Positions 1-62,798 are shown, counted from the first letter of the whole stretch. The stretch: 63,844 bases of DNA, filler included, from Stramenopiles sp. TOSAG23-6 (GCA_900128565.1; 9 parts of 9 records of this genome joined end to end with filler, not necessarily neighbours in it); one strand, 5' to 3'. Numbers and translations are program-made. The notes: generated from the sequence alone by a model not told the origin.

Positions 1-52
1 ACGAAATTTCGTACCTAACGATTTTTTTTTGAAATATTTTTTCACAATACGT

Positions 53-412
53 GTTGCGTGTCTTGTATTTGAACTAGCTACAGGTGATTTGCTCTTTGAC
101 CCTCAAGGAGGTGCAGGTTTTTCGAGAGATGATGATCACCTCGCGCAGGCTCTAGAACTTCTTGGGAAATGTCCAAAAAATGTAGCTCTTCACGGAAAAT
201 TTGCGAAGAAATTTTTTAACAGAAAAGGAGAATTGCGCAATATACGCAAATTGCGATTTTGGCCTTTAGAGCAAGTCTTGCATGAAAAATACGATCTATT
301 AATTGAGGAAGCGAAGCCAATGGCTGATTTTCTCACAAAATGTTTGACATACTCGTCTAAAAAACGCGCAACTGCTGAAGAGTGTTTAAAACATCCTTGG
401 CTTAACTCCTAA
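53..412 (+). CDS. SRPK: SRPK-family Ser/Arg protein kinase, last exon (partial)
   Basis: VACLVFELATGDLLFDP, RDDDHLAQ..ELLG, LRNIRKLRFWPL, RATAEECLKHPWL are typical of the SRPK C-lobe; preceded by the 3' end of an intron element (...cacaatacGT|GTT). Confidence 0.9.
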   Translation, partial: VACLVFELATGDLLFDPQGGAGFSRDDDHLAQALELLGKCPKNVALHGKFAKKFFNRKGELRNIRKLRFWPLEQVLHEKYDLLIEEAKPMADFLTKCLTYSSKKRATAEECLKHPWLNS

Positions 413-494
413 ATATCTTGTATGTTGTAGTGGAGATTTGATGTTTTTACAAATAAAGCACAGTTTTTCCTTATAAAAATGTTTATTTTATATT

Positions 495-1523
495 TTATAA
501 TTCCCAGTCAAATTCATCACCTGTGCTCCCAATGGTATCTTCAACGACACTAGGAGGAGAAGTTGTCGCATCAATATTTGAGGAATATTCTCCAAATATA
601 TAACCTACTACTAACATATATATAAATACACATAGCTTAAATAAAAGATATATCAAACAAAGTAGTATAATTGGAATACAATACCTAAAATAGCCAAAAC
701 ATAAACCGTCCAAATATCGATATACTCGCAAAAGATTGAAACCAGTTGACATGAATTTATATAGTGTATTTGGATCCATTGCAGCAAACATTTCTGCATA
801 CTTTTTCATTGCTTCTACCTGCATCTTATCAGCCCCAGAAGACGTTGCTGGTAAAGAAGATGCTACAGTTTTAAAATATTCCTTTAATTGCTGACCATTC
901 ATACCGGCAAGGAAATCAAATTGGGAACCTATTGTACTAGAGGATGGAACCGAAGTCGTTGAGTTTGACGAAGTTCCCGAAGACATTCCAGAAGACATAC
1001 CTGCTTGCATTGCTTGTATTTGAGCAGGTGTCATTTTTGACACTTTCTCCTGCTGTGCTTTAAACTCTGATGCAGTCATGTTTTTCATCCTATCAGCCAT
1101 CATTTTAACCATGTTAGGATTATCTGCCAGCATTTCCATTTGCTTCGCTTGGGCACAAAGTTGTTCGTTCGTCAAGTGAGCTAGTTGAGGGTTTTGACGC
1201 CGAACGGCATCTGGCTGAGTTTTAAGCATGTGAGCTTGCATACGTAACTGTCCTGGATTCGCATTTTTTAACTGATCTGCCTGAGATTGCAATTGCTCAG
1301 TTGTAAGCGATGGCATTTCGTTATTGTTACATTTGGTACTTGTATTTTGACTAGAAGCTGTGCCTTTTTTATATTGACGAAGTAACTTTACAAATTCGTG
1401 TGGTTCGACGTTTTCTTTCAGTAATTCACGAAGATGCTGCTTTTCGACGCACTTCGAATAATCAACACCTTTTGCAGAAAGAGCCTGTTTCATCTGCTTT
1501 ACTGATGCCGTATCATAGGACAT
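495..1523 (-). CDS. Gln/Met-rich STI1-like protein with C-terminal transmembrane segment
   Basis: NPNMVKMMADRMKNM-type STI1-like repeats, N-terminal KGVDYSKCVEKQHL motif, hydrophobic C-terminal helix; start placed at MSYDT. Confidence 0.5.
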   Translation of the reverse strand: MSYDTASVKQMKQALSAKGVDYSKCVEKQHLRELLKENVEPHEFVKLLRQYKKGTASSQNTSTKCNNNEMPSLTTEQLQSQADQLKNANPGQLRMQAHMLKTQPDAVRRQNPQLAHLTNEQLCAQAKQMEMLADNPNMVKMMADRMKNMTASEFKAQQEKVSKMTPAQIQAMQAGMSSGMSSGTSSNSTTSVPSSSTIGSQFDFLAGMNGQQLKEYFKTVASSLPATSSGADKMQVEAMKKYAEMFAAMDPNTLYKFMSTGFNLLRVYRYLDGLCFGYFRYCIPIILLCLIYLLFKLCVFIYMLVVGYIFGEYSSNIDATTSPPSVVEDTIGSTGDEFDWEL

Positions 1524-1807
1524 GACTATAGAAAGCACAATAAAATCAACTCGAGGAGTACTTTTTTTCAAGACTCTCGAGAAGTCGAAGTAATAATAAT
1601 AATAATGCTTGTTTTATTGTGTCGAAGTCGTCGAAGTCACTCGATGATTCTGAAATTTTTTGATTGGCCGGCCCTAACCCTAACCCTAGTGACTATAGCC
1701 TAAAGACAAGAGACAACACAATAATTTATGTGTGTGTATAAGACACGTCATACACTGAATGATACAGAGCAAGATTTGATTCCAATCAGATTTATTTTTA
1801 TCTTGTA

Positions 1808-3700
1808 TCAGTTTTGATTTAATTTGTCAACTTCTTTAATAACCATTTTTGCAACCTCTTCAATATTCATATCAGTGCATGCAGGATCAACTACAACGTC
1901 TACCATGACACTACCGCCACTAGTTCTAGTTTCTCTGAATATTTGTTTATCGTAAAGTCTATCATAATAATGTAAAGCCTTGTCTGCAAAATCTCTAAAA
2001 TTACTTCCAGCGAGTAATTCAAGCATTTCATTGCAACGCTCACGTCCAAGTCTACGTTCTAATGTTCGAGTTGCATTAGCCATTTTCTCGAACCAATCAG
2101 CAGATGGTTTACTGATTTTAATGTTATTTGCATACTCTATTGATGTCATTTCATCACGATTTATATCTGCAGCTCCTACATGTATTTTGGAAAAATATTT
2201 GAAAGAAAAATCGTTAGGTACAAAATTTACTATAAAAAATATTCGAATTTGAATTTGAAAAAACATAAAACATACATAATCTTGAATTAAAATTGAGAGA
2301 CGAGAAGCACGCGGTACAACAAGCTTGATAATGATAGGCGCGGTTTGCATTAAACGATATAAACCAAGCGGTAAGTTAATCTGGCCAATATTAGGCCCTT
2401 CATCTTCGATAAATACAACCTCATTTTCATTTAAACGCGACCATTCAATGGCAATATTATTCATAAATTGCTGTTTTGTTGGCTGATTCCCATGGCCTAT
2501 TGACCCAAATGCTGAGCCATTGTGCATAGCTATTCCTTCTAAATCTAAGACTTGTTTTCCAAGTTTGTCTCTTAGAGCATGAATAATCCTTGTTTTCCCA
2601 CTACCAGTTCTGCCTGTAATAATGATAACTTTTGGTTGTTTTGAAGGATAGTTTATCGGCCATTGGGCTTCAGCTAGTGCTTCTTCTTGTTTCTCTTTTT
2701 TTTTCTTAGCTAAATTTTTCTTTACTTCAGTAATCAAATCCCCTTCGAATTGTTTTAACCTTTTCTCATTAGTTGCAGCGCGACGAGCTGCACCATCTTG
2801 CAGCAGCATAGTGTTGTCTTCTCCTTTCAAGTTCTTTCTTCTAACGTTTTGCTCTCTCTTTTTGTTCATTCTTTCCATGTATTTCGGATTCTTTACCGCT
2901 TCGCGTAATTGAATTAACTTTTTCAGCTTTTTACCTTTCACAAATTGAAGTAGTGCACGATCACTTTCAATGTCACTATCCATGTGAGTTGTGGTCATGT
3001 CAGCTTCTTTCAACACATGTGTGTTTTCTCGAGCCCAGGAGTATCCGGCACTATTTGGCACGTAGCAGTACATCTCACGCGCCCATCTTTTAAAGCTTTT
3101 GTATCCACCAGTTAATACAAATGTTTTTGCACTTGGCAAACGGCGTTGAAGTAGAAACGCAAAAGAGTGAGATCGCATGCCACCCCTCGAACAGTAGATA
3201 ACAACTTTGCGCTGACCGCCCAGAAGCTCCGCCACCTTCTCTTTCAATTTTGACAATTTCGGCCTAACAATATCCATACCTTCAGTCAGAGCACTCTCAC
3301 GACTTCGTGTCTTAAAAGTTGTACCCACGCATTCACGTTCTTTATCTGAAAATAAAGGAACATTGAATGCGTTACATATATGACCTGATAAAAACTCAGA
3401 AGGTGATCGAACATCTATAATTACACTCTCGTCTGAATTCAATAGATTCACGGCGCATAGCGCATCAATATTCGGTATTGTTTCCTTCACGCGTACTGCA
3501 AAGGCTGAAAGAACTTCGGGAGATGTTTCCTGCGAATTGGATAGTAGGAGAAGAAAATTTTCATCATCAATATCATTATTATTATTCTTAGTCCTACATG
3601 TTTGGCCATGTATACCTTGCCTAATATGAAGCCATTTCTTGTCGCCCTTTAGAAATGATGGCACACTTTTTACTAGAAACCGAATCATGTTGGTATACAT
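1808..3700 (-). CDS. mnmH: tRNA 2-selenouridine synthase-like (rhodanese + P-loop); in-frame intron 2180-2275
   Basis: IDVRSPSEF..GHI, YCSRGGMRS, GGYK, GRTGSGKT, LDLEGIA.H.GS.FG, EDEG motifs; removing the 96-nt GT-AT element gives IQDY|VGA. Confidence 0.85.
   Translation of the reverse strand: MYTNMIRFLVKSVPSFLKGDKKWLHIRQGIHGQTCRTKNNNNDIDDENFLLLLSNSQETSPEVLSAFAVRVKETIPNIDALCAVNLLNSDESVIIDVRSPSEFLSGHICNAFNVPLFSDKERECVGTTFKTRSRESALTEGMDIVRPKLSKLKEKVAELLGGQRKVVIYCSRGGMRSHSFAFLLQRRLPSAKTFVLTGGYKSFKRWAREMYCYVPNSAGYSWARENTHVLKEADMTTTHMDSDIESDRALLQFVKGKKLKKLIQLREAVKNPKYMERMNKKREQNVRRKNLKGEDNTMLLQDGAARRAATNEKRLKQFEGDLITEVKKNLAKKKKEKQEEALAEAQWPINYPSKQPKVIIITGRTGSGKTRIIHALRDKLGKQVLDLEGIAMHNGSAFGSIGHGNQPTKQQFMNNIAIEWSRLNENEVVFIEDEGPNIGQINLPLGLYRLMQTAPIIIKLVVPRASRLSILIQDYVCFMFFQIQIRIFFIVNFVPNDFSFKYFSKIHVGAADINRDEMTSIEYANNIKISKPSADWFEKMANATRTLERRLGRERCNEMLELLAGSNFRDFADKALHYYDRLYDKQIFRETRTSGGSVMVDVVVDPACTDMNIEEVAKMVIKEVDKLNQN
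2180..2275 (-). mobile_element. Introner-like GT-AT intron
   Basis: TAT|gtatgtttt...gtaaattttgtacctaac...ccaaaatacat|GTA; the nearest downstream AG would shift the frame. Confidence 0.8.
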
Positions 3701-6214: not shown

Positions 6215-7726
6215 TTATTTTGTTTTAGATTTCTGTGAAGCTTTTGCTATGTTATTAAACATTGCATCTGCACAAATAGCTGCCTCTTTCAAAGAAGCAC
6301 GTCTTCTCAACTTCAGTTTCGGTCTTTGATCACTAATTGTATAAGACATTTCTATACTTTCCGTAGAATCTGCTGATAAATACTGTTTGAAAGAGTGATT
6401 TTTTGTTTTAGTATTGTCGCGATATTTCATTGTGGCATTTGTTACTACGTTTGATCCAGTATTCCGAATATCATTTTCTATTTTTTTACTGTTTTCCTCT
6501 TTTGAATGTTTTGTGAAAAATATTGTTTTTTTTGGTTGTACAAATTGTATTCGTTAGGTACAAAATCTTTTTTACAAAATCTTTTTTACAAAACAAAAAA
6601 AAAATAAATGAATGATAAAAAATTACATCTATTTTTGCTTCTTCATTCTCAACCATGTCTACCCATCCATGTTCACACCAAGTACTCTTAGCAGTACTAA
6701 ATGATTTTGACAGATCATCTTCTGAGGTTTCATTAATCAATATTTCTCGAAGATACCGTCGTTCAATATAGCGACACATGTTTAGTACTAGATCGCATAA
6801 ATTTTGGGAAAATATTTTCAATTGTTTTTTGTTAGGTACAAAATTTCGTACGAAAAAAAATGAATTTAAATTTGATCCTGAAAACATACATTCACACGGA
6901 AGTAATGGCCAGTCAAATGGAACTGTATTATTTGTAAGACTTTCTCCTTGTGCAATTATTGTGAAAAATATTCTTTTTGAAATATTTTTTTTATTAGGTA
7001 CAAAATTGTCTATGAAAAAAACAAATAGAGAAAAAAAATGTGTTTTGGGGAAAAAACGTACTATTATTGCATGTGCAAGAATTTCAAACGCAAGCATTCT
7101 ATTTGTATTCACCCATCTCAATTGCACTTTATACGTTTTTGCAAGATATTTGACACCAAAATATATTTTGGAAAAATATTTCAAAAAAAAACTCATTAGG
7201 TACAAAATTTCGTACGAAAAAAAATTTCGAATTTGAAAAAAAATAAAACATACATGTCTCCGATTTTCCGCTAAATAATGTAAAATCCCATGTTTTATCG
7301 AGGTGACAATAAAAGGAAGCAAACGACTTCGATGTTTGGAATGCATCCCCGCACCATATTCTATCATTACTGCAAATAAAATACGACAGCCTTGAACTGC
7401 AATAAAAGGATCATCAGAATAAGCTAGGTTCATGTATTTTGGAAAAATATTTCAAAAAAAAAAAATCATTTTTGTTAGGTACAAAATTTCGTACGAAAAA
7501 TAAATTGAAAAAAAAATAAAACATACATTACACGTAAAAGTCTGCCTCTCAGTTTTCCTTCTTTCCATAAATATTTAAGATCTTCATTGTGTTTCATGGC
7601 ATTACCACAAAAATCTTCTGCTGACTTGATTGTAAAATAATCATTATCAATATCTGAACGTCTTATGTGATCAGTGGGTTGAATATTTAAAAAATCAACA
7701 TTATTATTTATATCTAAGCCAACTGC
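6215..7726 (-). CDS. Hypothetical multi-exon protein (5'-partial) interrupted by about 5 intron elements
   Basis: Coding-like segments alternate with copies of the gtacctaac element; e.g. CAT|gtatg...aaaatatat|TTT restores the frame. Confidence 0.55.
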
Positions 7727-7780
7727 ATGTATTTTGGAAAAATATTTCAAAAAAAATCTAAAAAAATTTGTTAGGTACAA

Positions 7781-8508: not shown

Positions 8509-8552
<44 letters not shown>

Positions 8553-15168: not shown

Positions 15169-15572
15169 GGCGAACATTTTGAAGATTTTCAACCATTCGA
15201 AGCGAGAGGTTTTGTAAGTCGTTTACTTGGCATGGGTGATATAAAAGGCCTCATGGAAACAATGAAAGATTCAAAAATTATGGAGAATGCTCCGGAAATG
15301 ATGGATCGCTTATCTAAAGGAAAATTCAGCCTTCGGGATGTATGTTTTATTTTTTTCAATTTCGAATTTATTTATTTTTTACTATGAAAATTTCGTACCT
15401 GACGAATTTTTTTTTATTAAAAAAAATATTTTTTCACAACACATATGAGAGATCAATTTGAAGGTGTATTGAATCTTGGTCCTCTTAATCAATTTATGTC
15501 AATGATACCCGGTCTACCAGCAGGAGCCATTCCAGAAGGTGGAGAAGGTGCGAATCGGATCCGACGATTTAT
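15169..15572 (+). CDS. SRP54: Signal recognition particle 54 kDa subunit, internal exons; intron 15340-15444
   Basis: GEHFEDF.PF...FVSRLLGMGDIKGL...GKFSLRD|MRDQF..VLNLGPLNQFMSMIPG. Confidence 0.92.
15340..15444 (+). mobile_element. Introner-like GT-AT intron in SRP54
   Basis: CGG GAT|gtatgtttt...cacaacacat|ATG AGA restores conserved FSLRDM; there is no AG in the intron 3' region. Confidence 0.85.
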
Positions 15573-42289: not shown

Positions 42290-42384
42290 ACGTATTGTGA
42301 AAAAATATTTCAAAAAAAAAAAATTGTTAGGTACAAAATTTCGTATGAAAAAAAAAATAAATTAGAAATTCATATAAAACATAC
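42290..42384 (-). mobile_element. Intron element with GT-GT ends in the presumed 3' UTR of PP4R3
   Basis: atgtGT|gtatgtttt...gtacctaac...cacaatacGT|atag. Confidence 0.7.
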
Positions 42385-47243: not shown

Positions 47244-48160
47244 GGTTGTCAAATGTCTGTTTGTTGGAGTCATTCAAAAATTCAAAAAGAATTTTCAAAA
47301 AAAATGATACAAACAATCACACAACAAAGATTGAGATTTGAAAGAGTTGCAAATATTTTAGAATTACCTATTGAACCATTTCTTGAAAATATTTCAAAAG
47401 TAAAATCTAGAGTATGGGGTGATCATACAGAGAAATATATGTATGTTATATTCAAATTATGAATTTTTTTTTTTTGTTGAAATAATTTTTTTTTTTTTTG
47501 AAATTTAAAATTTTTTTTTTTTTTGAAATTTTTTTTTTTTTTGAAATTTAAAATTTTAAAAAAAAAAAAAAAATGAATAACAAATGAGTAACAAAACATT
47601 TAAAAAAATATTTCTTCACAATATAGGCATGTTCTTGTACCCATCATGGATATGTTTAATCATTCACACACTGCTCCACGATTAAGCCCTCAAAGAAATA
47701 ATAATAATCAATTTATAGAATACAGATGTATGTTTTATTTTTTTTTAATTTTTTGTCTAAATTTTTTTCGTACGAAATTTTGTACCTAACAAATTTTTTT
47801 TTAGGTAAAAAAATTTTGAAATATTTTTTTAATTTTTTGTCTAAATTTTTTTCGTAGTAAATTTTGTACCTAACAAATATTTTTAGATTTTTTTTGAAAT
47901 ATTTTTACAAAATACATTTCGTTCCAACACAAACATTAAACAAAATGATCAAGTTTTTGATAACTATGGAATGAAATCTAATGCTCAATTATATAAATTG
48001 TATCAATTTGTTCAAAAAAATAATCCAAGTGACACGTGTCAATCAATACAAGAATTTTCAAAAGATAAAATTAATGAATTATTTGACAACAATATTTTTC
48101 AGACGACAAGAACATTTTCAAAAGAAATATGTGCAGCATATACATGATTGTTTGTCCTAC
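47244..48160 (+). CDS. SET-domain (Rubisco LSMT/SETD3-like) methyltransferase, internal exons
   Basis: Spliced frame gives VKSRVW...M|HVLVPIMDMFNHS...QNDQVFDNYGMKSNAQL; right boundary approximate. Confidence 0.75.
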
Positions 48161-48624: not shown

Positions 48625-50397
48625 TATACTTAATACAATTCGACTTCCTTCTATGACTTTTTGTACTTGATGAAGATTTTCTTGTCCTGCTGAAAAAATA
48701 ATTAAACGTCTGGAATTTGGTGATACTAAATGTGTTGTTTTGTTAGGGTTAGGGTTATCTATCGTATCTATATTTGTCTTTTTCTCTTTTTTTCTCTGGA
48801 TTTCGTGTTTTGCTTTTTCAATGACGTCATCGAGTCTTTTTTGATGCCAATGATTCAATCTATTTGGTAACTTTTGATGATGATTGAGTAAATCTTTCTT
48901 TTTTAAACCATTTGATAGATTGTACAACAATATTTCAATTTTTTTTTTAATTTTTGTTAGGTACAAAAAATTCAATTAAAAAAAAAAAATTTACAAAAAA
49001 ATGTTAAAAAAAAATTGTTCAAAAAAAAATGAAAAATAAATAATGAAAAATAAATAATGAAAAATACAATATAAACGAATAAAATCGTCAACTGACAATG
49101 TGTCATTTTGTACATTAAGAAATTTCAAAAGACCTTTCCAGCTTTTCTTTGTTGCTAAATTTTTCATTTTGTAAAATAATGCATATTTTTGAAAATCTGT
49201 AAAAGTCATACAACAATTTTCTTCATTTTTTGAATTTTCTTCATTTTCTTCATTTTTTGAATTTTCTCCATTTTCTGAATTTTTTGAATTTTCTTCATGT
49301 TTTACATTTTCTTCATTTTCATCCATTGTACTTTTAAATTCATTGAATATATCAGCTACTATTTCTCTTGACCAAATCAAAGTATTGTGAAAAAATATTA
49401 AAAAAAAAAATACTAAAATTTGTTAGGTACGAAATTTCGTATGAAAACCAAAAAAAAACCAAAAAAAAAAAATTAGATAAAAAATTGAAAAAAAAAAAAA
49501 CATACAATATTCTTTTGTTTCTTCAGTCGTACATAACTCACAAGACTTAGGACATGAATTAGACACAATATCAGCTTGACAACCTCCGTTCTTTGCATAT
49601 GCCTCACATGACATTTTAGCACCCATAGCTAAAATATCTTCATCATAACACCCTCCACCATCTTTCATCATTGCTGAAATGTCGTGATCGCCATCTAACC
49701 AGGCAAAATGCCCTCCCGTGAAATCAAAGTCTTGGTCTGATAAATATAATAAACCTGAATAATCATAAAACTCAGTATTATTCTTATCAATATGAGGGTG
49801 CCAGTATTCATCATGGATTGATCGAGGCGACCAAGTCGAGTTACCAACCGTCCTTGTTACAAAAGTTGGGGCAGTAAAATGAAGTGTTGATAGATTGAAT
49901 TCTTCCATAATTTTTCGTCGAATCCGTTCAATTATGTTCTTATAGAGAGCATACTCAGTCGTAGAAAACTGTGCTGGTTGTGTCTGTGCATGTTGATCCA
50001 AGGTAGGATTTAACTTGTACATATTGGAGTGGCCAAAAGAGTCACGAATGAAACCAGTATTGATGTCCATTATTGTAGGACCGCCCGAATGCGACCGTGG
50101 TGTCGCATATTGAAGCCCTTTTTGTATAATACTTAATAAACCATCTTGTTCATCAGATGTGACAAAATTTTCAACGACGACACGTGCACAGTTATCCCTG
50201 GGATGACAACCATCTACAAAACCACCGGAGGAATTCTTTATCGCGTCATCATATTGTGAAGAACACTCAATAGGCCACTTTTGTATAAGAGGTACACCTT
50301 TGGACCATTTTGGTGTATACATTTCACGAGGATATTGTAAAGCCATAACCGGCAATACTAATACACAAAACAGGAAAGTAATGAAGGTAATATTCAT
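48625..50397 (-). CDS. 2OG-Fe(II) oxygenase (OGFOD3/P4H-like) with ShKT insert, multi-exon; 3' end uncertain
   Basis: Signal peptide, GGPTIMDIN, FTAPTF, DEYWHPHIDK, DYSGLLYLSD..F.GG.F, ShK-like C...CPKSCELC; later RLIIFSAGQENLHQVQKVIEGSR. Confidence 0.8.
49380..49505 (-). mobile_element. Introner-like GT-TT intron
   Basis: GAA TAT T|gtatg...cacaatacTT|TG ATT TGG; the acceptor copies the exon TT. Confidence 0.75.
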
Positions 50398-50693: not shown

Positions 50694-53496
50694 TTGATGA
50701 ATATGCGACTTATATTCTTTTACATTGTGCAATATATATTTGTTACGCGTATTTCAGTGATAGGTTCTATTTATCCAGAACCAGAACCAGAAAATGGACC
50801 TGTAAGATTTTATAAAGTGAATCCTCATACTGGTGAAATATTTATTCCACCACCAAAAGACTGGAAGGGACAAAGTGCTAGTCCTCCTCCACGATCACCT
50901 GAATTTCAACCATTCCAACCACTATTTCGTCCTACATCACCTGAGTTTCAATCAGGCCAATCTCGAAGTCGTAGTCGTAGTCCTCCACCACAACAAATAA
51001 CTGTTGTAAATGAGGTGACGTGTCCTCCTTTGGAGGAATTCCCGTCTATTGATGCTCAAGTCAGTGAGACGCTAAAAAGTATACTTACAAAAGTCAAATT
51101 AACTGAAAGTGAGACTAAGTTTCATATAGATAAACCCCGTATTATTATCGAAGAACAGATACGAAAAATGTGGGCAACTGCTGAGGTGAAGCCTTATGGA
51201 TCAAGTCAATATGGTGCTTATATACCAAGTGTTTCTGATGTTGACCTTATTGTAAAACTACCCGGTGAATCAACAGATGTTCTGCGACGTGCACAACTTA
51301 AAGATTTATCAATATTTTTAACCAAGACATCGAATTTAATTAATGTTAAATACATTGATGCAAAAAATTACCCTCTTGTATCATTAGAATGTCAAGGAGT
51401 TAAATTTGACATATTGATGTGGACTCTGAATTTCCAGGGGAACGAAGCGATTTTGGAATCCAAGGCATCACTTGAAGCTCATGATCAGAGTAGAGATTTA
51501 AATATCTTACTGAAGTTATACCTAAATAATCTTCAACTCAATACAGCTGGAGGGCTCACAAGTTTCGTTTTGGTTCTTATGACTCGATTTTTCCTTGAGA
51601 CTTCAGGAAAACATCTTGAGGGCTTAGACATTGGAGATGTGCTATTTTTATTTCTTAAAATGTTCGGAAAGGATAGTCCATTTATAGCTACCGGTATTAC
51701 TCCAAGTATGTGCATGTTGCTTGAGGGTCACGCGAAATGTGCAGAATGTCCTGGACTTTGGCCAGGGCAAATGTTTATACAAAATCCTCTACGAAAAGAT
51801 TCATATCAAAATGCTGCGGCTCAGGTACGTAGCGATAAATTACAAATGGTGCAACTTGAGTTTGAAAGATTATCAACCGTATTATTATCTGGAAAAGCCC
51901 CAGAGGAAGTGTTTTCACCACTAGCACTACATGCTGCCGAAGAAATTAAAGACGCCTACTTTAAAGAAGAAAGAAAGAGGAAAAAAAAGGAACGTCAAAA
52001 ACAGGAACAGGCTCGCAAAAGACAACAACAGGAAGATGATGCAAAAAGGCAATCGGAAAAAAATAAAGCAATTCGAGAAGCTGAAAGGGAAAAAACGATG
52101 CGTGAGGAAGAAACTCGTCAAGCTGAAATAGCTGCTCAGAAAAAAGCAGCTGAAGAGGAGGCGAAAGCAAAAAAGAAGGCCAAAAATTTGCGGAAGAAAC
52201 AAAACAAGCAGAAAAGAAAAGAAGAAGAAGCAGCAGTAGCAGCAGCCGCAGCCGCAGAAGTCGAAGAAGCAGCAAAATCTGGTGTAGAGGACAAAGACAT
52301 TATGTTTGCTGTATCTCAGCCTGAACCTGAAGTGCCAAGCGATACAAGTTATGATACGATAAAAGCAAGAAAGGACAATGCTGGTATGACATTTAAAACT
52401 AGATTTTTATATCTGATACATGAAAACTTGAGGAATCTAAAAGGTGCAACAAAAGAGGAATTGATAAGTAGCTTCGAAACCAAGGGAGTCAATGATGATG
52501 ACATCGTTGTAGAATCCATTGTTAAAGATAGTATTGCTAACCTCTTGAAGGTAAACTTGATTAGAAAGGCAAAAAAATCTGGTAAATACTTTATTAATAA
52601 TAAAGCTGGAAAAGAACGAACAACTTACGCCACGCATGCAAAGTTTCAGAAAGGGTTAAAAGTATTTTTACAGTTGAATGAAACATGGAATGAATGTATA
52701 GCAAATTTGAGAATGAGTCACAGAAGATTTGTTAGAGAAATCCTACCTCTCAGCCAACAGCAGAGGTTTACGACAGCATCGCTGAGAGAAGACTTAGAAA
52801 TATTGCACCTTTTTAATATTATTGAGGTAACAAAACTTCCAGCATTATTAAAGGGGCAGAATATGACATTCTACCAATATGTATGTTTTCTTCATCAACA
52901 TCAATTTCATTTTGTTTTCGTATCACATTTTGTACCTAATGAATTTCAAATTTGACATATTTTTCACAATCCATAGTCTTTCTCCATCGTTTTCAAGACG
53001 CCGGGAAACAATAAGGAGAATGCTATTTCCAAAGCTTCCAAGAGGTGTGCCAAAAAAGAAAATATCTATGAAAGATGTTATTAAATCGATAAAGTTTGAG
53101 AAGGAGCTATCTGTTTTCTTTGATCTCTTTGGCATTGAATATACGACAGATATACTATCAGCTAATCTTGCAACGAATCTTTTTCATATTCCTGGTGTTA
53201 AAGATCTCTTTCATGATACTGCAATGTTACAAAATGCATTTGATCAATCTACTGCACTACCTGGAGAGTCTGAAGTAGAAGCAGCAAAAGTAGTAGAAGC
53301 AGCAAAAGAAGCAGTACGTGACAAAAGAGACAACGGAGACGCACCAAAAGCAGAACAACAAAATGAAATAATAAAACAAGCAACATCATCACAACATGTA
53401 GCGGATATGTTAGTGGCCCATTTAAATTCAAAACCTGAGCCTGGAACAATGATGACTATTCAATATGACCCTGATAAAAACGCTGATAAAATGTAA
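50694..53496 (+). CDS. Trf4/Cid1-like non-canonical poly(A)/(U) polymerase; intron 52881-52974; start uncertain
   Basis: VKPYGSSQYG.YIP.VSDVDL, IDAKNYPLV, FDI, GGLTSFVLVLM, G.VL..FL..FG, IQNP. Confidence 0.8.
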
Positions 53497-55089: not shown

Positions 55090-55844
55090 AAGCTTATCTT
55101 TGATATCTATGATGCGGATAATAATGGATTCATTGATAAAGAGGAATTAATACGAATATTGCGAATTATCTCTGATGGTGATGAAGAAGTAGAATTTGAG
55201 AGACATGTATGTTCCAATGAAAAATGAAAATTTCTAAAAAAAAAAAATCAAAAGTTTTTTTTTTCATATATTACTATGAAAAATTCCAAAAAAAAAAAAA
55301 TCAAAAATTTTTTTTTTCATACGAAACATTGTACCTAACCAAAAAAAAAAATCAAAAATATTTATCATCATACATTTATTGTTAGGTAATATATTTGAAA
55401 AGTTGGATGTCGATAAAGATGGAAAGATTTCGTTTGATGAATTTAAGGATGTATGTTTTTTTTTTTTTTTTTTTCGAATTCGAAATTGAATTTTTTTTTT
55501 TATAGTAAATTTTGTACCTAACAATTTTTTTTTTTTTTTCAAATTCGAAATTGAATTTTTTTTTTCATAGTAAATTTTGTACCTAACATTTTTTTTTTTT
55601 TTTTTNAAATATTTTTCCAAAATACATGNNNNNNNNNNNNNNNNNNNNNNNNNNNNNNNNNNNNNNNNNNNNNNNNNNNNNNNNNNNNNNNNNNNNNNNN
55701 NNNNNNNNNNNNNNNNNNNNNNNNNNNNNNNNNNNNNNNNNNNNNATTTTGTNCCTAACATTTTTTTTTTTTTTTTTGAAATATTTTTCCAAAATACATG
55801 GTGTATCGGCTGAACCAAGACTCGTGAATGCTTTTTTTTTCTAA
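55090..55844 (+). CDS. Calcineurin-B/NCS-like EF-hand protein, last exons
   Basis: KLIFDIYDADNNGFIDKEEL; IFEKLDVDKDGKISFDEFKD|GV..EPRLV; acceptors end in AT. Confidence 0.8.
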
Positions 55845-56247: not shown

Positions 56248-58166
56248 TCAAAAATGAACCGTTTCTTTAATAACCTCATAATTTCGAAGTGCATCTGGAA
56301 CGTATACTTTTTCAAATGCCATGTTTTAAAAAAAATACATCAGAAAAAAAAATGTTAGTAAAAAAAAAAAAAAAAATTGTCAAAAAAAAAAAAAAAAATT
56401 TTCCATGATTTTTTTTTTTTTGAAATATTCTAAAACGTACAATGGAAAAGGAGTATCATAGCCACATACTCGTCTTAGAGGCGCCTCTAAATTAAGAAAA
56501 CAATTTTCTTGAATATATGCAGTAATTTCACCAGCAAATCCGCCTGTTATTGGAGCTTCCTACATTTTAAAATTAAAAAAAAAAATTGTTAGGTACAACA
56601 TTTACTACGAAAATATTTCTACATTTAAAAAAAAAATGTAAAAAAAAAAAAAAAAAAATTTGGTATTTATGTACGAAATTAACTACGATTTTTTTTTAGG
56701 GTTAGGGTTAGGGTTACGTACATGAGACACAATTAATCGACCAGTCTTCAAAACTGAGTTTCTTACCATATTTCGATCCCATGGCAATACTGATCGTAAA
56801 TCAATCAATTCACACGAAATACCGTCTTTTTCTGCCATAGTGCATGCTTCCTCTAAAACGTCAACTTGACTACCCCATCCAACAACAGTAACATCTGTTC
56901 CCTTTTTTTTCAAATATATATTTTAAAAAAAAAATCTTTTTTTGTTTAGGTACAAAATTTTGTATGAAAAAAAAAAAAAAAAAAAAAAAAAAACTTTTTT
57001 TTTTTTAATTTTTAGGTAAAAAATTTCCTATGAAAAAAAAAAAAAAAAAAAAAATTTAAAAAAAAAAATTTAAAAAAAAAAATTTAAAAAAAAAAAANNN
57101 NNNNNNNNNNNNNNNNNNNNNNNNNNNNNNNNNNNNNNNNNNNNNNNNNNNNNNNNNNNNNNNNNNNNNNNNNNNNNNNNNNNNNNNNNNNNNNNNNNNN
57201 NNNNNNNNNNNNNNNNNNNNNNNTTTTGAAAAAATATACATTTTTTTTTTTTTTTTTTTTTTTGGGGAGAAAATTTCGTTTAAAAAAAAATTTCAAAATT
57301 TAAAAATTTTTTTTTTTTTTTTTTTTTTGTTAGGTACGAAATTTCGTATGAAAAAAAATTTCAAAATTTCAAAATTTTTTTTTTTTTTTTTTTTTGTTAG
57401 GTACGAAATTTCGTATGAAAAAAAATCTCAAAAAAAAAAATGTTGTACGATTCATTAAGAAAACAAACATGACAATTTTAAGACCTGGAGTACCTGCAAA
57501 GTATGCTTCTGGGGATTGTGAATGATAGAGACCACCATGCCCAACAGCACTACACGGTGCTCGTATGGTTAAGCCACCACAATTAAACATATTTCCTGAA
57601 CGGTATCTATATTTTGCTGCTTCGTTTACAATTTGATCAAATGCAGGAAAAATATAATCTGCGAATTGAATCTCTGCAATACATTTGTACCCTTGAGTGG
57701 CATACCCAATACCAAATCCTGCAATGCCCTGTTCACATAATGGTGTGTTAAACACACGCGCTTCTCCGAATTGTTCACGTAGTCCCGTGGTACAACGAAA
57801 AACACCTCCAAACGCAACATCTTCGCCAAAAATGACGGAATTCTCTTCTGTTTCAAGAAAAATGCGCATTGCATCGTTTAGTGCTGTAAATAAGTTCATT
57901 TTTTCCATTTTTTCATCAATGTCTCGTTCCATTCGTATTATTGGTACAACAGAAGATAAATGACGACAGTTTTTTTTAATCAGTGATGGGTAGCTATCTA
58001 CAGAAGGAGGACTATAGAATTTGGAATCAAACCTTTGCGTGGTCACACTGGAGTACATGCTTCTACATGGAATGCTGAAACCCTTACTAGACTTTGAAAC
58101 TGGCCATTGTGTTCGTTTTAGACCTAAATCTATGATTCTATAAGATCTTGGAGTAGTAAATATCAT
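56248..58166 (-). CDS. BCKDHB: Branched-chain 2-oxoacid dehydrogenase E1 beta; introns include 56560-56721 (GT-AG) and 56321-56440 (GT-AT)
   Basis: [92 protein letters not shown]. Confidence 0.95.
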
Positions 58167-59674: not shown

Positions 59675-60143
59675 TGTTTGCGTTTTTGAGTTTTTGTTGT
59701 TGTATGTATAGGGTATACTTCCAGTACGAGTGAACGAATGTTGATGTTCAATCGAATGGACTAATTTAAACTATAAAAATAAAATAACGAAATGAATGGA
59801 TATTTATTGTTCAGTGATGTTCAATACTCTACGTCAACTCTGAATGTAAGTTCATTCGTATTGAGAACAAATCCGCGCTTCATACTATGATTTTATGGAT
59901 TTTACGATTTCAAGATTGGATTGGATTGATTTTTCGATATTTCTAAATATCTCCGATATATCGATATATCGGCGATATTATGTCCGATGTGTTCAAAATC
60001 TGAATTTGAAAAATTCGAATTTTTTCTCTCCCTCTCCTTCTTCGTTGTTGTTCGTCGTTTCTCTCTGCTCATCTGCTCGTATATTTTCAATATTCAATAC
60101 TGTAGTACACATCATTGTCATACTATAAGAAAAAGAATTCAAC

Positions 60144-62121
60144 ATGCAGTCATATAACCATAGTGCAAACAAAACAGTTCAACACTTTCAAAATAGAATA
60201 GCTGAAACGAAACAGACACTACTCGAGAAGCAGACGATGCTCGAGAGAGAGGCGGCGAACGTGTCAAAGCTTCAAAGTAGCTTGGCAAAAACCGTTCAAA
60301 AAATTGATAAACTATCAGAATTATCATCAACAAAACGCCAGACAACAACACTGAATATCCAAAAGAAACCAGAGGAAAAGGTGCCAGTTACTAACATGAC
60401 AATTTGTTCTAGTGGCACTGATGCTATGATGGGTGAAACAGAAGTGTTGGATGACAACTCAAGGTTTTCAAGTAGGTTTTGATTTTTTTTCAAAATTTGA
60501 TTTTTTTTTTTTTTCAAATATAATTTTGTTTCACGTTAAATTTGTGAATTTTTGTGAATTTTGTCTCTATATTTATATATGAAACGACATTCATTTCAAA
60601 TAATTGTAATTTGTTTTTTCTTTACCAAACATCGTTAATTCGAATGGCAGTCAAAAACGAAATTGAAGAGTTGCTGACGTTACAAAACAAACAAAATAAT
60701 TATACAAAAAAACAAAAAAATCATATCCACTCTAATACACAAAATATTTCATCAAACATACAAAACATACAAAACATACAAAACATACAAAATATAAAAA
60801 ATATACAAAACACAAACAACATACAAAACATACAAAATATAAAAAATATACAAAATATAAAAATTGGTGATGTTGTAACTCATCTAATTCATGGACGTAT
60901 TTCAAAATTATAATTTTTTTTTTGTATTTTTTTAAATTTTTTATTCTTCAAAAAACAAATAAAATGAAACCTAACCCTAACCCTAACCCTACTACAACAT
61001 ATCATACACAATCAAGCGGCAGTTGTGTCTTGGATAGGTCTTTTCCCTCAACTTGGTGATGGTCTCTTTCTTGGACTTACTCTACAACATTTAGACAATT
61101 ATTCAACAAAAAATAAAAAACATAAAAAAAATAAAAAAAATGAAAAAAATGAAAAAAATGAAAAAAATAAAAATATGAAATTCAAATCAAAGTCATTTCA
61201 TAATGGTTGTGATGGAGCATTAGTTATAAATGGTCACTTATATAGAAAATTTATGACAAAAAACGGATTTGGTATTTTTTGTACACTAAATGATTTACGA
61301 TATGTATGTTTTTTTTTTCAAATTCGATTTTTTTTTAGTACGAAATGTTGTACCTAACAAATTTTAGTTTTTTTTTTTTTGAAATATTTTCTTACATACA
61401 TCTTCAAAAGGATTCATTAATTCAAAATCCAAAACAAAAAAATGCTCAATATATTTCATTACGTATGAAAAATTTCATTATTCGTATTCAAATCTTCGAA
61501 TCAACAACATTTGGAGAATTGACGGAAACAGCTGCGGCGTTATTCCATATATGTTTTATTTTTTTTTTTGAAATTTTGAATTTTTTTTTCATACGAAATT
61601 TTGTACCTAACAAATTTTACTTTTTTTTTTTTTTTTTTTTTTTAAACAAAAAAATCTTTTTTTTTTTTATAAAAATTTTGTACCTAACATTTTTTTTTTG
61701 AAATATTTTTTCTTTTTTTTTTTTGAAAAAAAATTTTTTCCCAAAAAAAAAAAAAATTTTTTTTTTTTTTTTTTTTCCAAACAAAAAAAAAAAAAAAAAA
61801 AATTAAATATTTTTTTACAATACATTTTTCCAACATTAGTTTTTATTACCAAAAAAGCAAAATCGAAATGTCGTATATGGCTTGAAGAACCTCAAATACT
61901 TCAAAATGAGTTAAACAAGTATATCGATCGAGAATCAAAGTACGAGGCAGGGTTAAGTTTCCAAAATTTTCAAAAGTTTTTTCGGTCGATGAAACAACCA
62001 CTGTATTTTTTATTTCAGTTTTTCGTAGTAAATTTCGTACCTAACGAATTTAATTTTTTATTTTTAAATTTCAATTTTTTTTTTATAGATCATTTTCATA
62101 CATCTGAATATCTACTAATTC

Positions 62122-62155
<34 letters not shown>

Positions 62156-62640
62156 TTGATGAAAATTTTTTTTTTTTTTTTTCTTGGATAATTTTTGAAG
62201 AATAGAAAAATAATAAAATTGTAATGTACACATATTTGCATATACTATATGAAAGCTGAAAAAAACACTTCCGACTTTTTATACGAGTATCCATGCCCTA
62301 ACCCTAATGAAGAATTTGATCACCATCAAAACATTTTTAATGAAACTTACATGGAATATTTTTTATTTGAGCAGTTTTGTTCATATCCAAATGAAATACA
62401 AGAAAATATTCATCCAACCATTCAAGATAAATTAGAAATTGGAGTATCAAGTACTCATGATTTTTTTCAAATGTATAAAAAAATGCAATATCTTTGAACC
62501 TTTCTCTAATTACTCTCATACGAATTCTATAGAGCGTCATAAGACTAACAAAAATAGAAATTTTGATGTTTTAGATGAAATAGATGAAAAAAAATTCATT
62601 GATTTAATTTTAGAAGATACCAAAACATGTATTTTAAAGG
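60144..62640 (+). CDS. Multi-exon protein with a CAP-Gly-like domain (structure uncertain)
   Basis: IKIGDVV...VVSWIG...GLFLGLTL...GCDG...GHLYRKF...FGIF; N-terminal coiled coil; NIQ repeats. Confidence 0.5.
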
Positions 62641-62798
62641 TTTTTTTTTTTTTTTTTTTTTTNNNNNNNNNNNNNNNNNNNNNNNNNNNNNNNNNNNNNN
62701 NNNNNNTTAATTAATTAANNNNNNNNNNNNNNNNNNNNNNNNNNNNNNNNNNNNNNNNNNNNAGAATATAATAATTTGTGAGAGGAGCAAAACTGCGT

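What the first reader, a model, noticed from the sequence alone, without database searches (positions are those of the whole stretch)
1..62662. Widespread family of non-canonical introns, mostly GT-AT, in ordinary housekeeping genes
Seen in sequence: about 40 related ~90-130 nt inserts with consensus GTAYGTTTT...TTCRTACGAAATTTTGTACCTAAC...TTGAAATATTTTTC(C/A)CAA(A)TACAT. Removing them as GT...AT restores conserved motifs exactly: ZMYND10 ENPP|WTRR (24448-24576), SRP54 FSLRD|MRDQ (15340-15444), NhaB LH|IAEVG (32964-33059), ankyrin FHCA|WG (19527-19628), BCKDHB PFP|LAFEK (56321-56440). No in-frame AG is available in these cases. A rough manual tally of acceptors is ~25 AT, ~6 AG, ~3 TT, ~2 GT, 1 AC. 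The register shifted by 2 nt (AT-AC) is disfavoured because it gives SQEAP and PFPM in BCKDHB instead of conserved SHEAP and PFPL. Established: U2-type introns almost always end in AG; mass non-canonical introns are known from a few lineages (Fritillaria, Amoebophrya, euglenozoans) with different termini. Inference: this organism's spliceosome, or another machinery, largely does not require the 3' AG.
Basis: partly seen in the sequence, partly recalled or inferred. Interest (0 to 1): 0.95.

Follow-up and report, generated by a model that had tools for sequence, protein, structure and literature searches.

The report
Transposon-born introns that lack AG ends
Ordinary genes of this AT-rich marine protist are interrupted about once per kilobase by copies of one ~95-base mobile-element-like insert that starts like a normal intron but mostly ends in AT instead of AG, so the cell must remove introns without the usual end signal, although the removal itself was not seen in RNA here.

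Summary
One repeat family is present as 58 non-mirrored copies or fragments. It reads GTAYGTTTT, A/T linker, YGTACGAAATTTYGTACCTAAC, T-run, AAATATTTTTCMAAAAYAC plus 2 nt. I curated 33 inserts: all start GT; they end AT 22, AG 6, TT 3, GT 1, AC 1. Exact removal is backed by homologues or profiles at ten junctions in five genes.

This includes TT/TT twice and GT/GT once. That is the mark of a 2-bp target-site duplication, so the family looks like a MITE-type introner whose duplicated target becomes the intron's 3' end.

Copies lie sense to the flanking ORF in 48 cases against 7. They carry a 5' splice site, a CTAAC branch-like box and a pyrimidine tract, which favours spliceosomal removal.

Direct RNA proof is missing. 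No splice joint was displayed, and one polyA-RNA contig keeps an insert.

Larvacean Fritillaria already shows mass introns ending in AT with duplicated flanks, so this is a new variant of a known kind. The nearest named homologues here are stramenopile protists.

The parts
2180..2275 (-). family intron, AT|GT..AT, 96 nt
   Evidence: Full-length nhmmer hit. Exact removal fuses 511 + 123 open codons. Length is 3n and stop-free in frame.
6506..6626 (-). family intron, AT|GT..AT, 121 nt
   Evidence: 3' half hit. Donor GTAATT gives 275 + 96 open codons.
6797..6889 (-). family intron, AT|GT..AT, 93 nt
   Evidence: 187 + 102 open codons. Length is 3n and stop-free.
6954..7061 (-). family intron, TA|GT..TT?, 108 nt; 3' end uncertain
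   Evidence: Length is 3n and stop-free, so the frame test cannot fix the 3' end.
7161..7253 (-). family intron, AT|GT..AT, 93 nt
   Evidence: 66 + 224 open codons. Nested foldback in the MFE structure.
7432..7526 (-). family intron, AT|GT..AT, 95 nt
   Evidence: 84 + 314 open codons. In-frame stop inside the insert.
13412..13506 (+). family intron, TT|GT..AT, 95 nt (mirror copy at 10027-10121)
   Evidence: 41 + 83 open codons.
14322..14496 (+). family intron, AT|GT..AG, 175 nt
   Evidence: 78 + 71 open codons.
15340..15444 (+). SRP54 intron, AT|GT..AT, 105 nt (mirror copy at 8089-8193)
   Evidence: Flanking exons align to consecutive residues 328|329 of PDB chain 6r6g_AB. In-frame stop inside the insert.
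16049..16156 (-). intron in glycosyltransferase-2 family gene, AT|GT..AT, 108 nt
   Evidence: 36-residue gap in homologues P0157 and P0159. A cut shifted by 6 nt, also GT..AT, would fit the conserved Y/F better.
16489..16582 (-). intron in the same gene, TT|GT..TT, 94 nt
   Evidence: In all six homologues tested the second alignment piece starts at 16491, continuing FFDL|CSAPY. 124 + 139 open codons. None of the four equivalent registers ends in AG.
19527..19628 (+). ankyrin-gene intron, AT|GT..AT, 102 nt
   Evidence: 215 + 210 open codons. Ank repeats on both sides. A DNA metagenome contig spans it unchanged (X3 record 4).
20186..20297 (+). family intron, AT|GT..AT, 112 nt
   Evidence: 214 + 908 open codons.
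20445..20546 (+). family intron, AT|GT..AT, 102 nt
   Evidence: 85 + 825 open codons. Length is 3n and stop-free. Seen unspliced in polyA-RNA contig X9 record 29, 20352-20606.
23977..24145 (-). ZMYND10-like gene intron, TT|GT..AG, 169 nt, core duplicated
   Evidence: The P0146 alignment joins DTIL|RIRKYINE.
24206..24317 (-). ZMYND10-like gene intron, AT|GT..AT, 112 nt
   Evidence: The P0146 alignment joins NIM|CEGECRK. There are five equivalent registers and none ends in AG.
24448..24576 (-). ZMYND10-like gene intron, AT|GT..AT, 129 nt
   Evidence: 43-residue gap in P0146 between ENPP and WTRR.
31972..32068 (+). NhaB loop intron, AC|GT..AT, 97 nt
   Evidence: Frames read. The region is not conserved. 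By my reading, an in-frame AG 45 nt downstream cannot be excluded.
32441..32528 (+). NhaB intron, AT|GT..AT, 88 nt, directly followed by the next intron
   Evidence: Together with 32529-32632 it could be removed as one GT..AG unit.
32529..32632 (+). older family intron, AT|GT..AG, 104 nt
   Evidence: Core hit. The exon after it matches the NhaB profile from position 211.
32964..33059 (+). NhaB intron, AT|GT..AT, 96 nt
   Evidence: Pfam NhaB profile positions 319|320 are consecutive across it. An AG 18 nt upstream of the end is skipped.
33216..33311 (+). NhaB intron, AT|GT..AC (or AT..AT), 96 nt; exception to the family rule
   Evidence: Profile positions 370, 371 and 372 are colinear only with this removal. 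The region holds several Ns.
34635..34734 (+). family intron, GT|GT..AG, 100 nt
   Evidence: 39 + 84 open codons.
39534..39629 (+). family intron, AT|GT..AG, 96 nt (mirror copy at 46680-46775)
   Evidence: 70 + 265 open codons.
42290..42384 (-). family intron, GT|GT..GT, 95 nt
   Evidence: Frame support is weak (31 + 13 open codons). It lies near a chimera junction of the contig.
42577..42670 (-). intron in PP4R3 gene tail, AT|GT..AT, 94 nt
   Evidence: 15 + 55 open codons.
47728..47917 (+). composite family intron, AT|GT..AT, 190 nt
   Evidence: 41 + 75 open codons. Core duplicated.
49380..49505 (-). family intron, TT|GT..TT, 126 nt
   Evidence: 303 + 128 open codons.
52881..52974 (+). family intron, AT|GT..AT, 94 nt
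   Evidence: 736 + 173 open codons.
55451..55627 (+). composite family copy, AT|GT..AT, 177 nt
   Evidence: An N gap lies downstream, so the frame could not be tested.
56321..56440 (-). BCKDHB intron, TT|GT..AT, 120 nt
   Evidence: The GT..AT join gives DTPFP-L. L follows the motif in 92 of 92 homologues that carry it. It has a TACTAAC box. The family profile did not detect it.
56560..56721 (-). BCKDHB intron, AT|GT..AG, 162 nt
   Evidence: The join gives SH|EAP. H is found in 92 homologues. This fixes the 5' cut before GT.
61304..61401 (+). family intron, AT|GT..AT, 98 nt
   Evidence: 112 + 99 open codons.

Best explanation
The inserts are copies of one short, non-autonomous, foldback (MITE-like) element that acts as an introner. 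Each copy carries a strong 5' splice site (GTAYGTTTT), a hairpin-flanked CTAAC branch-like box and a pyrimidine tract followed by ..AAAAYAC.

The element inserts into coding DNA with a 2-bp target-site duplication, usually of AT. The transcript is then repaired by splicing from the element's own GT to the end of the downstream duplicate. The intron therefore ends in whatever was duplicated: AT mostly, sometimes TT or GT. AG ends probably arose by later change.

This requires a spliceosome, most likely U2-type, that does not need AG at the 3' splice site.

Shown: the family, the termini, the flank/end repeat, the need for exact removal, and the sense-strand bias. Inferred: transposition, removal at the RNA level, and the spliceosome as the agent.
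For: FAMILY AND COPY NUMBER.
- Family statistics.
- 25 aligned copies share three conserved blocks; median pairwise identity is 0.72, maximum 0.94.
- Summed contig depth over element-rich bins in an independent DNA metagenome is about 9,000-18,000, against 4-10 on unique bins. This suggests on the order of 10^3 copies.

SPLICING SIGNALS.
- 5' end positions +1 to +9: G33 T33 A32 Y31 G30 T32 T32 T32 T31, each out of 33.
- A CTAAC-like box lies a median of 37 nt (range 19-57) from the 3' end.

EXACT REMOVAL IS NEEDED.
- 15 of 20 full-length copies carry a stop or a non-3n length.
- Exact removal gives the longest fused frame in 17 of 20, compared with 3' offsets of -2 to +2.
- Ten junctions in five genes are colinear with homologues, a PDB chain or a Pfam profile.

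TARGET-SITE DUPLICATION.
- The two bases before GT equal the last two bases in 22 of 33 (permutation p 0.002).
- All three non-AT matches are direct repeats, not inverted ones (p 0.007).

STRAND SPECIFICITY. 48 copies lie sense and 7 antisense to the longer flanking ORF, with 3 uncalled, out of 58.

THE 5' CUT IS BEFORE GT. BCKDHB gives L 92 of 92 and SH|EAP. The ZMYND10-like gene gives DTIL|R.

NOT REMOVED FROM DNA. A DNA metagenome contig spans 19176-19742, including insert 19527-19628. A polyA-RNA contig contains insert 20445-20546, so the insert is transcribed.

PRECEDENT. Introners whose duplication supplies the 3' splice site, and Fritillaria introns ending in a duplicated YAY, are described in PMC11282704 (section 6) and PMC13326754 (section 21).
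Against: - No spliced junction was displayed. Of 101 joints only 15 are shown, and all 15 look like repeat cross-joins.
- X9 record 29 (polyA RNA, depth 2.3) is colinear with the genome across insert 20445-20546.
- X7 record 9 runs 20 nt into insert 16049-16156.
- RNA runs X7 and X8 hold element sequence at summed depth 1,300-3,700.
- 5 of 20 copies are 3n and stop-free, so they could be translated through.
- 11 of 33 inserts lack the flank/end match. Intron 33216-33311 breaks the rule.
- The terminal inverted repeat is only about 4-6 nt. End-to-end pairing appears in the MFE fold of 8 of 20 copies.
- I found no empty site, no autonomous element and no transposase.
- No genome is held, so snRNAs and U2AF could not be examined.
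- The 17-mer core found no true copy in the JGI metagenome collection: 64 loci, 0 convincing.
Confidence: 0.68

Rival explanations
1. The inserts are the same, but the true cut sites for the majority lie 2 nt upstream. They would then be AT..AC introns, removed by a U2-type spliceosome that accepts A1/C-1, or by a U12-like system, rather than GT..AT introns.
For: For 18 AT/AT introns the AT..AC register gives an identical mRNA. The element proper ends in AC in 27 of 33 at positions -4 and -3. AT-AC termini are an established minor class (PMC13326754, introduction).
Against: - Where flank and end differ, the shifted register fails. BCKDHB 56321-56440 would give M where 92 of 92 homologues have L. 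BCKDHB 56560-56721 would give Q instead of the conserved H. ZMYND10-like 23977-24145 would give R where the homologue has M and the GT register gives L.
- TT/TT, GT/GT, TT/AT and AC/AT cases would become TT..AC, GT..AC or AC..AC, which are no more canonical.
- The invariant GTAYGT would sit at +3 to +8.
- No TATCCTT-type 5' motif occurs (0 of 33).
- The branch-like box lies a median of 37 nt from the end.
Confidence: 0.08
2. The inserts are removed from RNA by a structure-guided, non-spliceosomal route like that proposed for the nonconventional introns of euglenids and some diplonemids. In that route paired intron ends, not terminal dinucleotides, set the cuts.
For: Direct repeats lie at both junctions and the 3' dinucleotides vary. 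The element has a nested foldback architecture, and the ends pair in the MFE fold of 8 of 20 copies. AGs between the CTAAC box and the inferred end are skipped in 8 of 32. Such introns are described in PMC11282704 (section 6) and PMC12621601 (abstract and passages).
Against: All 33 start with GT and 30 of 33 fit GTAYGT. A pyrimidine tract and a CTAAC box are conserved. These are features the euglenid type lacks (PMC11282704, section 6). Folds are weak, at -4.4 to -18.5 kcal/mol for about 100 nt, and the ends pair in a minority. Six family members end in AG at the same position.
Confidence: 0.1
3. The inserts are cut out of DNA, as with ciliate internal eliminated sequences or precise transposon excision. 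The expressed genome copy would then lack them.
For: Removing the element plus one copy of a 2-bp repeat is what precise DNA excision would do. The assembly looks like amplified single-cell DNA.
Against: - Sense bias of 48 to 7. DNA excision should not depend on gene strand.
- The copies carry splice-type signals.
- An independent bulk DNA metagenome contig holds insert 19527-19628.
- A polyA-RNA contig holds insert 20445-20546, so the transcribed template contains it.
- The standard genetic code reads all tested exons.
Confidence: 0.04
4. The inserts are not removed at all. The genes would be decaying copies, or the inserts would be tolerated as in-frame peptide insertions, or they would be assembly artefacts.
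For: 5 of 20 copies are 3n and stop-free. 16 of 33 have 3n lengths. One RNA contig retains an insert.
Against: 15 of 20 copies would truncate or shift the protein. Flanking exons stay open and conserved across many genes. Independent DNA contigs from another study match the inserts.
Confidence: 0.03

Closest known systems
Non-canonical introns of Fritillaria larvaceans (Henriet et al. 2019, known to me only through citing papers; Soo et al. 2026, PMC13326754, sections 4 and 21 read)
   Same: - Genome-wide introns without AG.
- 3'-AT is the commonest 3' end: 44% in F. pellucida and 34% in F. borealis.
- A short triplet (YAY) stands before the 5' splice site and again as the last bases of the intron.
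- TIR and TSD point to a MITE origin.
- The pyrimidine tract is kept.
- Removal is ascribed to a U2-type spliceosome.
   Different: - Here every intron starts with a canonical, yeast-like GTAYGT (33 of 33 start GT). The main F. borealis classes start AG.
- One dominant family has a 28-nt conserved core and a CTAAC box.
- The repeat is 2 nt.
- The nearest named homologues are stramenopile protists and Telonema, not tunicates.
- There is no RNA proof here.
Introner elements of Micromonas, Aureococcus and dinoflagellates (review PMC11282704, sections 5-6 in passages and section 6 in full; listing of Gozashti et al. 2022)
   Same: These are short non-autonomous DNA elements in thousands of copies. 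They insert into genes. They carry one splice site and take the other from the target-site duplication.
   Different: In those cases the duplication supplies AG, so the introns are GT/GC-AG. Here the duplicated dinucleotide is mostly AT, so the introns are non-canonical.
Amoebophrya introners (Farhat et al. 2021, PMC7789003, passages read)
   Same: Repeated non-canonical introns with direct repeats that overlap the junctions, inverted repeats and hairpins.
   Different: Amoebophrya has direct repeats of 3-5 nt, inverted repeats of 8-20 nt, very diverse termini and no U1 snRNA found. Here the 5' site is an invariant GTAYGT and the inverted repeats are weak.
Nonconventional introns of euglenids and hemistasiid or eupelagonemid diplonemids (PMC11282704 section 6; PMC12621601 abstract and passages)
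   Same: Short direct repeats at the junctions, variable termini and a suspected MITE origin.
   Different: Those lack GT, lack a pyrimidine tract and depend on strong pairing of the ends. None of this holds here.
U12-type and other AT-AC introns
   Same: An AT..AC reading is formally possible for 18 of 33.
   Different: No U12-type 5' box occurs. The branch box is far from the 3' end. Informative cases reject the register. The U12 consensus motifs are recalled, not taken from a call.
Ciliate internal eliminated sequences
   Same: Precise loss of an element plus one copy of a 2-bp repeat.
   Different: The repeat is AT, TT or GT, not TA. Copies show strand bias. They are present in bulk DNA and in an RNA contig. 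The TA rule is recalled.

Membership tests
U2-type spliceosomal intron | 5' splice site GT with an extended consensus | tested here: met
   33 of 33 start GT; 30 of 33 fit GTAYGT.
U2-type spliceosomal intron | Branch-point box and pyrimidine tract upstream of the 3' end | tested here: met
   A CTAAC-like box is found in 32 of 33, a median of 37 nt from the end. A T-rich tract precedes the end.
U2-type spliceosomal intron | 3' terminal AG | tested here: not met
   6 of 33 end in AG; 27 of 33 do not.
U2-type spliceosomal intron | Removed from pre-mRNA as a lariat | tested here: inconclusive
   displayed no splice joint (15 of 101 shown) and showed one unspliced polyA-RNA contig. Lariats are not testable with these tools.
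Introner / MITE-derived intron | Many similar copies at unrelated gene positions | tested here: met
   58 non-mirrored hits in at least 8 contigs. Depth in an independent DNA metagenome suggests about 10^3 copies.
Introner / MITE-derived intron | Target-site duplication flanking the element | tested here: met
   Flank equals end in 22 of 33, p 0.002. The non-AT matches TT/TT (twice) and GT/GT give p 0.007.
Introner / MITE-derived intron | Terminal inverted repeats | tested here: inconclusive
   GTAT..ATAC only (6 nt if the AT is counted), plus two inner inverted blocks. The ends pair in 8 of 20 MFE folds.
Introner / MITE-derived intron | Empty sites or presence/absence polymorphism; a cognate transposase | not tested
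   No genome is held. The metagenome scan found no copies.
Fritillaria-type non-canonical intron | Non-AG 3' end made by a duplicated flank, with 3'-AT frequent | tested here: met
   against PMC13326754 section 21.
Fritillaria-type non-canonical intron | Non-GT 5' ends predominate (AG/AC, AG/AT); host is a larvacean | tested here: not met
   33 of 33 start GT. The nearest named homologues are chrysophytes, Heterosigma, Lapot and Telonema.
U12-type intron | Conserved U12-type 5' box, and a branch box close to the 3' end | tested here: not met
   0 of 33 have such a 5' box. The distance from branch-like box to end has a median of 37 nt. The consensus is recalled.
Euglenid-type nonconventional intron | No conserved termini, no pyrimidine tract, stable pairing of the ends | tested here: not met
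Ciliate-type internal eliminated sequence | Absent from the expressed DNA; orientation-independent | tested here: not met
   An insert is present in a bulk DNA contig and in a polyA-RNA contig. Sense bias is 48 to 7.

The most novel reading that the evidence does not exclude
In this protist the 3' splice site is measured, not read. The spliceosome, or an added factor that binds the element's conserved ..TTTTTCMAAAAYAC block, cuts a fixed two bases after the element-borne AC, whatever those bases are (AT, TT, GT or AG).

Any 2-bp target duplication can then serve as an intron end, so the element can colonise coding sequence almost anywhere. This would be an AG-independent second step of splicing that evolved separately from the Fritillaria case, in a lineage with fully canonical 5' and branch signals.
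Probability: 0.3. Interest if true: 0.85.

Novelty: new variant of a known kind. Interest (0 to 1): 0.62.

Why it matters
If RNA data confirm it, this would be a further lineage in which a mobile element has filled ordinary genes with introns that break the AG rule. By its nearest named homologues the lineage is probably a stramenopile-like marine protist.

It is also a cleaner natural experiment than the known cases. The 5' site, branch-like box and pyrimidine tract are canonical and nearly invariant, and only the last two bases float. That isolates one question: how is the 3' splice site chosen, and how much does the second catalytic step really need AG?

It has a practical side as well. Gene finders that insist on GT-AG will break most gene models of such genomes, because there is roughly one such insert per kilobase in this window.

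Tried and rejected
READS.
RNA contigs are short (150-470 nt, depth 2-17). Only 15 of 101 joints were displayed, all repeat cross-joins with sides of about 20 nt. The call therefore neither shows nor excludes splicing.
- Parts without RNA cover (for example 16789-17565 and 19638-20155) carry no weight.
- Weak hint only, because the tool warns that contig depth cannot rank parts. The ratio of summed depth on element-rich bins to unique bins is about 10^3 in DNA run X3 and about 1-30 in polyA run X9.

OTHER COLLECTIONS.
- An exact search for the 17-mer core in metagenome contigs gave 64 loci. nhmmer found only 4 weak partial hits in 3 of them, so there are no true copies there.
- Rfam at gathering thresholds gave 0 hits in the window.
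- No whole genome is held.

TAXONOMY.
- The protein atlas gave only the PP4R3 family.
- The best PP4R3 homologues are 36-57% identical and mostly unnamed.
- BCKDHB is too conserved to place the organism.
- Cluster look-ups gave chrysophytes, Lapot, Telonema and Heterosigma as the nearest named sources. I treat this as a weak placement.

HYPOTHESES CONSIDERED AND DROPPED.
- A larvacean source: no tunicate homologue ranks near the top.
- A diplonemid source: the introns do not have the euglenid type of ends.

LITERATURE.
- Searches found no paper describing a GT..AT introner family in a stramenopile or unplaced protist.
- Henriet 2019 and Gawryluk 2016 are not held, and supplements are closed. 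A prior description cannot be excluded.
- One SAG paper (PMC5269757, passages) reports only 'few but long introns' for one uncultured stramenopile group. I draw no link to this window.

FOLDING. Folding gave no strong end pairing.

Full report
WHAT THE WINDOW IS

It is not one locus. Eight linkers of 44 N, TTAATTAATTAA and 44 N, at 7781, 15653, 23502, 31351, 39189, 47021, 54844 and 62663, join contigs of 7780 down to 7719 bases in falling order of length, plus a shorter last one. Contig 2 (7881-15652) is a perfect palindrome about 11766/11767, and contig 6 has 3068-nt inverted arms. This is typical of amplified single-cell DNA. Copies in the mirrored arms are therefore counted once below. GC is 24-38%. 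No whole genome is held.

THE REPEAT FAMILY IS REAL

- A 14-mer from the core occurs 60 times with up to 2 mismatches, against 1.69 expected; 0 of 100 shuffles reach this.
- A 17-mer core with up to 3 substitutions gives 81 hits.
- A profile built from 12 clean copies finds 69 stretches, or 58 after removing mirrored arms.
- 25 aligned copies show three conserved blocks separated by A/T-rich linkers of variable length: GTAYGTTTT; TTTTTYGTACGAAATTTYGTACCTAAC; and AAATAT-TTTTYCAMAAYACAT. Median pairwise identity is 0.72 and the maximum is 0.94.
- In an independent seawater DNA metagenome, summed contig depth over the element-rich part of contig 3 is about 9,000-18,000, against 4-10 over unique sequence. 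This suggests roughly 10^3 or more copies per genome. The tool warns that such depths are crude.

THE INSERTS MUST BE REMOVED, AND PRECISELY

Of 20 non-redundant full-length copies, 15 carry an in-frame stop or a length that is not a multiple of three. Exact removal from GT to the profile's last base gives the longest open frame across the join in 17 of 20, compared with 3' ends moved by -2 to +2. One of the three failures (24206-24317) was later confirmed by homology.

Residue-level checks:
- SRP54. The exons on either side of 15340-15444 align to residues 272-328 and 329-370 of one PDB chain.
- ZMYND10-like gene. A 72%-identical protein from a 2154-nt metagenome contig (P0146) has a 43-residue gap that equals insert 24448-24576. 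It joins NIM|CEGECRK across 24206-24317 and DTIL|RIRKYINE across 23977-24145.
- Glycosyltransferase-2 family gene. In all six homologues tested the second alignment piece starts at 16491, continuing FFDL|CSAPY across 16489-16582. Two of them show a 36-residue gap at 16049-16156.
- NhaB. The exons match Pfam profile positions 211-319, 320-370 and 372-499.
- BCKDHB. The joins give SH|EAP and DTPFP|L.

TERMINI

I curated 33 inserts with both ends. All 33 begin GT, and 30 fit GTAYGT. They end AT 22, AG 6, TT 3, GT 1 and AC 1. One TT end (6954-7061) is uncertain, because that copy is 3n and stop-free.

Among the 27 non-AG introns, 18 have no in-frame AG within 40 nt of the inferred end. For the ZMYND10-like site the in-frame AG at +21 would delete conserved residues and is excluded. 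AG dinucleotides lying between the CTAAC box and the inferred end are passed over in 8 of 32 introns.

An independent DNA contig covers 19176-19742 with no listed difference inside insert 19527-19628. The unspliced polyA-RNA contig covering 20352-20606 has no differences from the window. The AT ends are therefore not an assembly error, and that one RNA molecule is not edited to AG.

The two bases before GT equal the last two bases of the insert in 22 of 33 cases (permutation p 0.002). The three non-AT matches are TT/TT (16489-16582 and 49380-49505) and GT/GT (42290-42384). They are direct repeats, not inverted ones (p 0.007). This is the signature of a 2-bp target-site duplication around an element that itself runs from GTAY to ..AYAC.

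Three consequences follow:
- The 3' dinucleotide is explained by the insertion event.
- For the 18 AT/AT introns, the GT..AT, TG..CA and AT..AC registers give the same mRNA and cannot be told apart from mature transcripts.
- None of the six AG-ending members has AG before GT (0 of 6; four have AT). This suggests a later AT-to-AG change rather than insertion at AG.

Where flank and end differ, homology places the 5' cut before GT. L follows DTPFP in 92 of 92 homologues that carry the motif, whereas the shifted register would give M. H is found in SH|EAP. L, not R, is found at DTIL|R. I therefore keep GT..AT as the most likely register and give the AT..AC reading 0.08.

RNA OR DNA, SPLICEOSOME OR NOT

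- By the longer flanking ORF, 48 copies lie sense, 7 antisense and 3 could not be called, out of 58. Of the full-length copies only one is ambiguous. A DNA excision system would not care about gene strand. A splicing signal does.
- The copies supply a near-invariant 5' site, a CTAAC box a median of 37 nt (19-57) from the end, and a pyrimidine tract.
- Predicted folds are weak (-4.4 to -18.5 kcal/mol) and pair the two ends in only 8 of 20. This argues against the euglenid type of structure-guided removal.
- Inserts are present in bulk environmental DNA and in a polyA-RNA contig. This argues against elimination from the expressed genome.

WHAT THE RNA DATA DID NOT GIVE

Only one read-laying run was allowed, and the linkers confined it to one contig.
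- No joint of about 100 nt at an insert is among the 15 of 101 joints displayed.
- One polyA-RNA contig (depth 2.3) is colinear with the genome across 20445-20546.
- One RNA contig runs 20 nt into 16049-16156.
- Two non-polyA RNA runs hold a great deal of element sequence.

That retained insert is one of 5 of 20 copies that are 3n and stop-free in the host frame, so retention there would be tolerated. Overall, removal at the RNA level is a well-supported inference, not an observation.

EXCEPTIONS

- Intron 33216-33311 in NhaB is colinear with the profile only if it ends right after ..ATAC (GT..AC), or equivalently as AT..AT. The region holds several Ns.
- 32441-32528 sits directly in front of an older family intron that ends CACAG. 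The pair could be removed as one GT..AG unit.
- At 16049-16156, a cut shifted by six bases on both sides, again GT..AT, would fit the conserved aromatic residue better.
- 31972-32068 lies in an unconserved loop, and an in-frame AG 45 nt downstream cannot be excluded.

WHO IS THE HOST

Long ORFs encode ordinary eukaryotic proteins: RhoGEF-FYVE, PDZ, PP4R3, EF-1 beta, ETF, SRP54, BCKDHB, NhaB and TMEM144. The nearest named homologues are:
- chrysophytes, Lapot gusevi and a brown alga for BCKDHB;
- Telonema for PP4R3;
- Heterosigma for the ZMYND10-like protein.

PP4R3 is at most 57% identical to anything in the searched collection. The DNA recurs in seawater metagenomes and metatranscriptomes. 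I conclude that the host is a marine protist, possibly a stramenopile, with weak support. It is not a larvacean.

COMPARISON WITH WHAT IS KNOWN

- Introners that carry one splice site and take the other from their target duplication are established in Micromonas and other algae. There they yield canonical introns (PMC11282704, passages and section 6).
- Mass non-AG introns with duplicated flanks are established in Fritillaria. There 3'-AT is the commonest end in two species, and divergent U2AF paralogues recognise the odd 3' ends (PMC13326754: abstract, sections 4 and 21).
- Amoebophrya and euglenozoans have more irregular versions (PMC7789003 passages; PMC12621601 abstract and passages).

The present case combines the two ideas in another lineage and in a very clean form: canonical 5' and branch signals, with a free 3' dinucleotide. 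My searches found no description of it. The two key subscription papers and all supplements were out of reach.

VERDICT

- Observation: confirmed.
- Interpretation: partly supported, and sharpened to a MITE-like introner with a 2-bp duplication.
- Novelty: new variant of a known kind.
- Interest: 0.62, limited by the missing RNA proof and by the Fritillaria precedent.

Noticed in passing
7781-7880, 15653-15752, 23502-23601, 31351-31450, 39189-39288, 47021-47120, 54844-54943, 62663-62762: The window is a pseudomolecule. Contigs sorted by falling length are joined by N44-TTAATTAATTAA-N44 linkers, which carry stops in all six frames. Features must not be read across them.
   Followed up: yes
7763-15770 and 39189-42256 / 44053-47120: Contig 2 is a perfect palindrome with 4004-nt arms and no spacer. 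Contig 6 has 3068-nt inverted arms. These look like chimeras from whole-genome amplification. The genes and inserts in them appear twice.
   Followed up: partly
1672-1689, 13849-13860, 18293-18325, 23785-23796, 26723-26734, 30317-30328, 40452-40469, 48743-48754, 56211-56222, 56696-56713, 60969-60992, 62296-62307: Short telomere-like (CCCTAA)2-3 blocks occur 21 times against 0.04 expected. Several lie just beyond ORF ends, for example right after 29648-30316 and 25 nt after 39594-40427. Some lie inside introns. Their meaning is unknown.
   Followed up: no
2180-2275, 6797-6889, 6954-7061, 7161-7253, 20445-20546: Five of 20 full-length copies are multiples of three and stop-free in the host frame. 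16 of 33 curated introns have 3n lengths, where a third is expected. One of the stop-free copies is the insert seen unspliced in polyA RNA.
   Followed up: partly
32441-32632: A young copy sits exactly at the 5' junction of an older, AG-ending family intron. The result is two tandem GTACGTTTTC starts.
   Followed up: partly
23977-24145, 47728-47917, 55451-55627, 57327-57435: Composite introns in which the core block is present twice, from tandem or nested copies.
   Followed up: no
18080-18123: A partial copy of the core block only lies antisense to the 489-codon open frame of the PDZ-domain gene. It is one of 7 copies scored antisense.
   Followed up: no
31573-33698: A bacterial-type NhaB Na+/H+ antiporter gene with at least five family introns and a long unconserved loop inserted between profile positions 175 and 211.
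   Followed up: partly
62763-63844: The last contig is 42% GC against roughly 24-38% elsewhere. It carries a 347-codon open frame with no Pfam match. It may come from another organism.
   Followed up: no
55629-55745, 57098-57223, 38864-38972: Assembly gaps (N runs of 109-126) fall inside or next to T/A-rich family introns. About 65 residues of BCKDHB are missing at the 57098-57223 gap, judged against a recalled human sequence.
   Followed up: no
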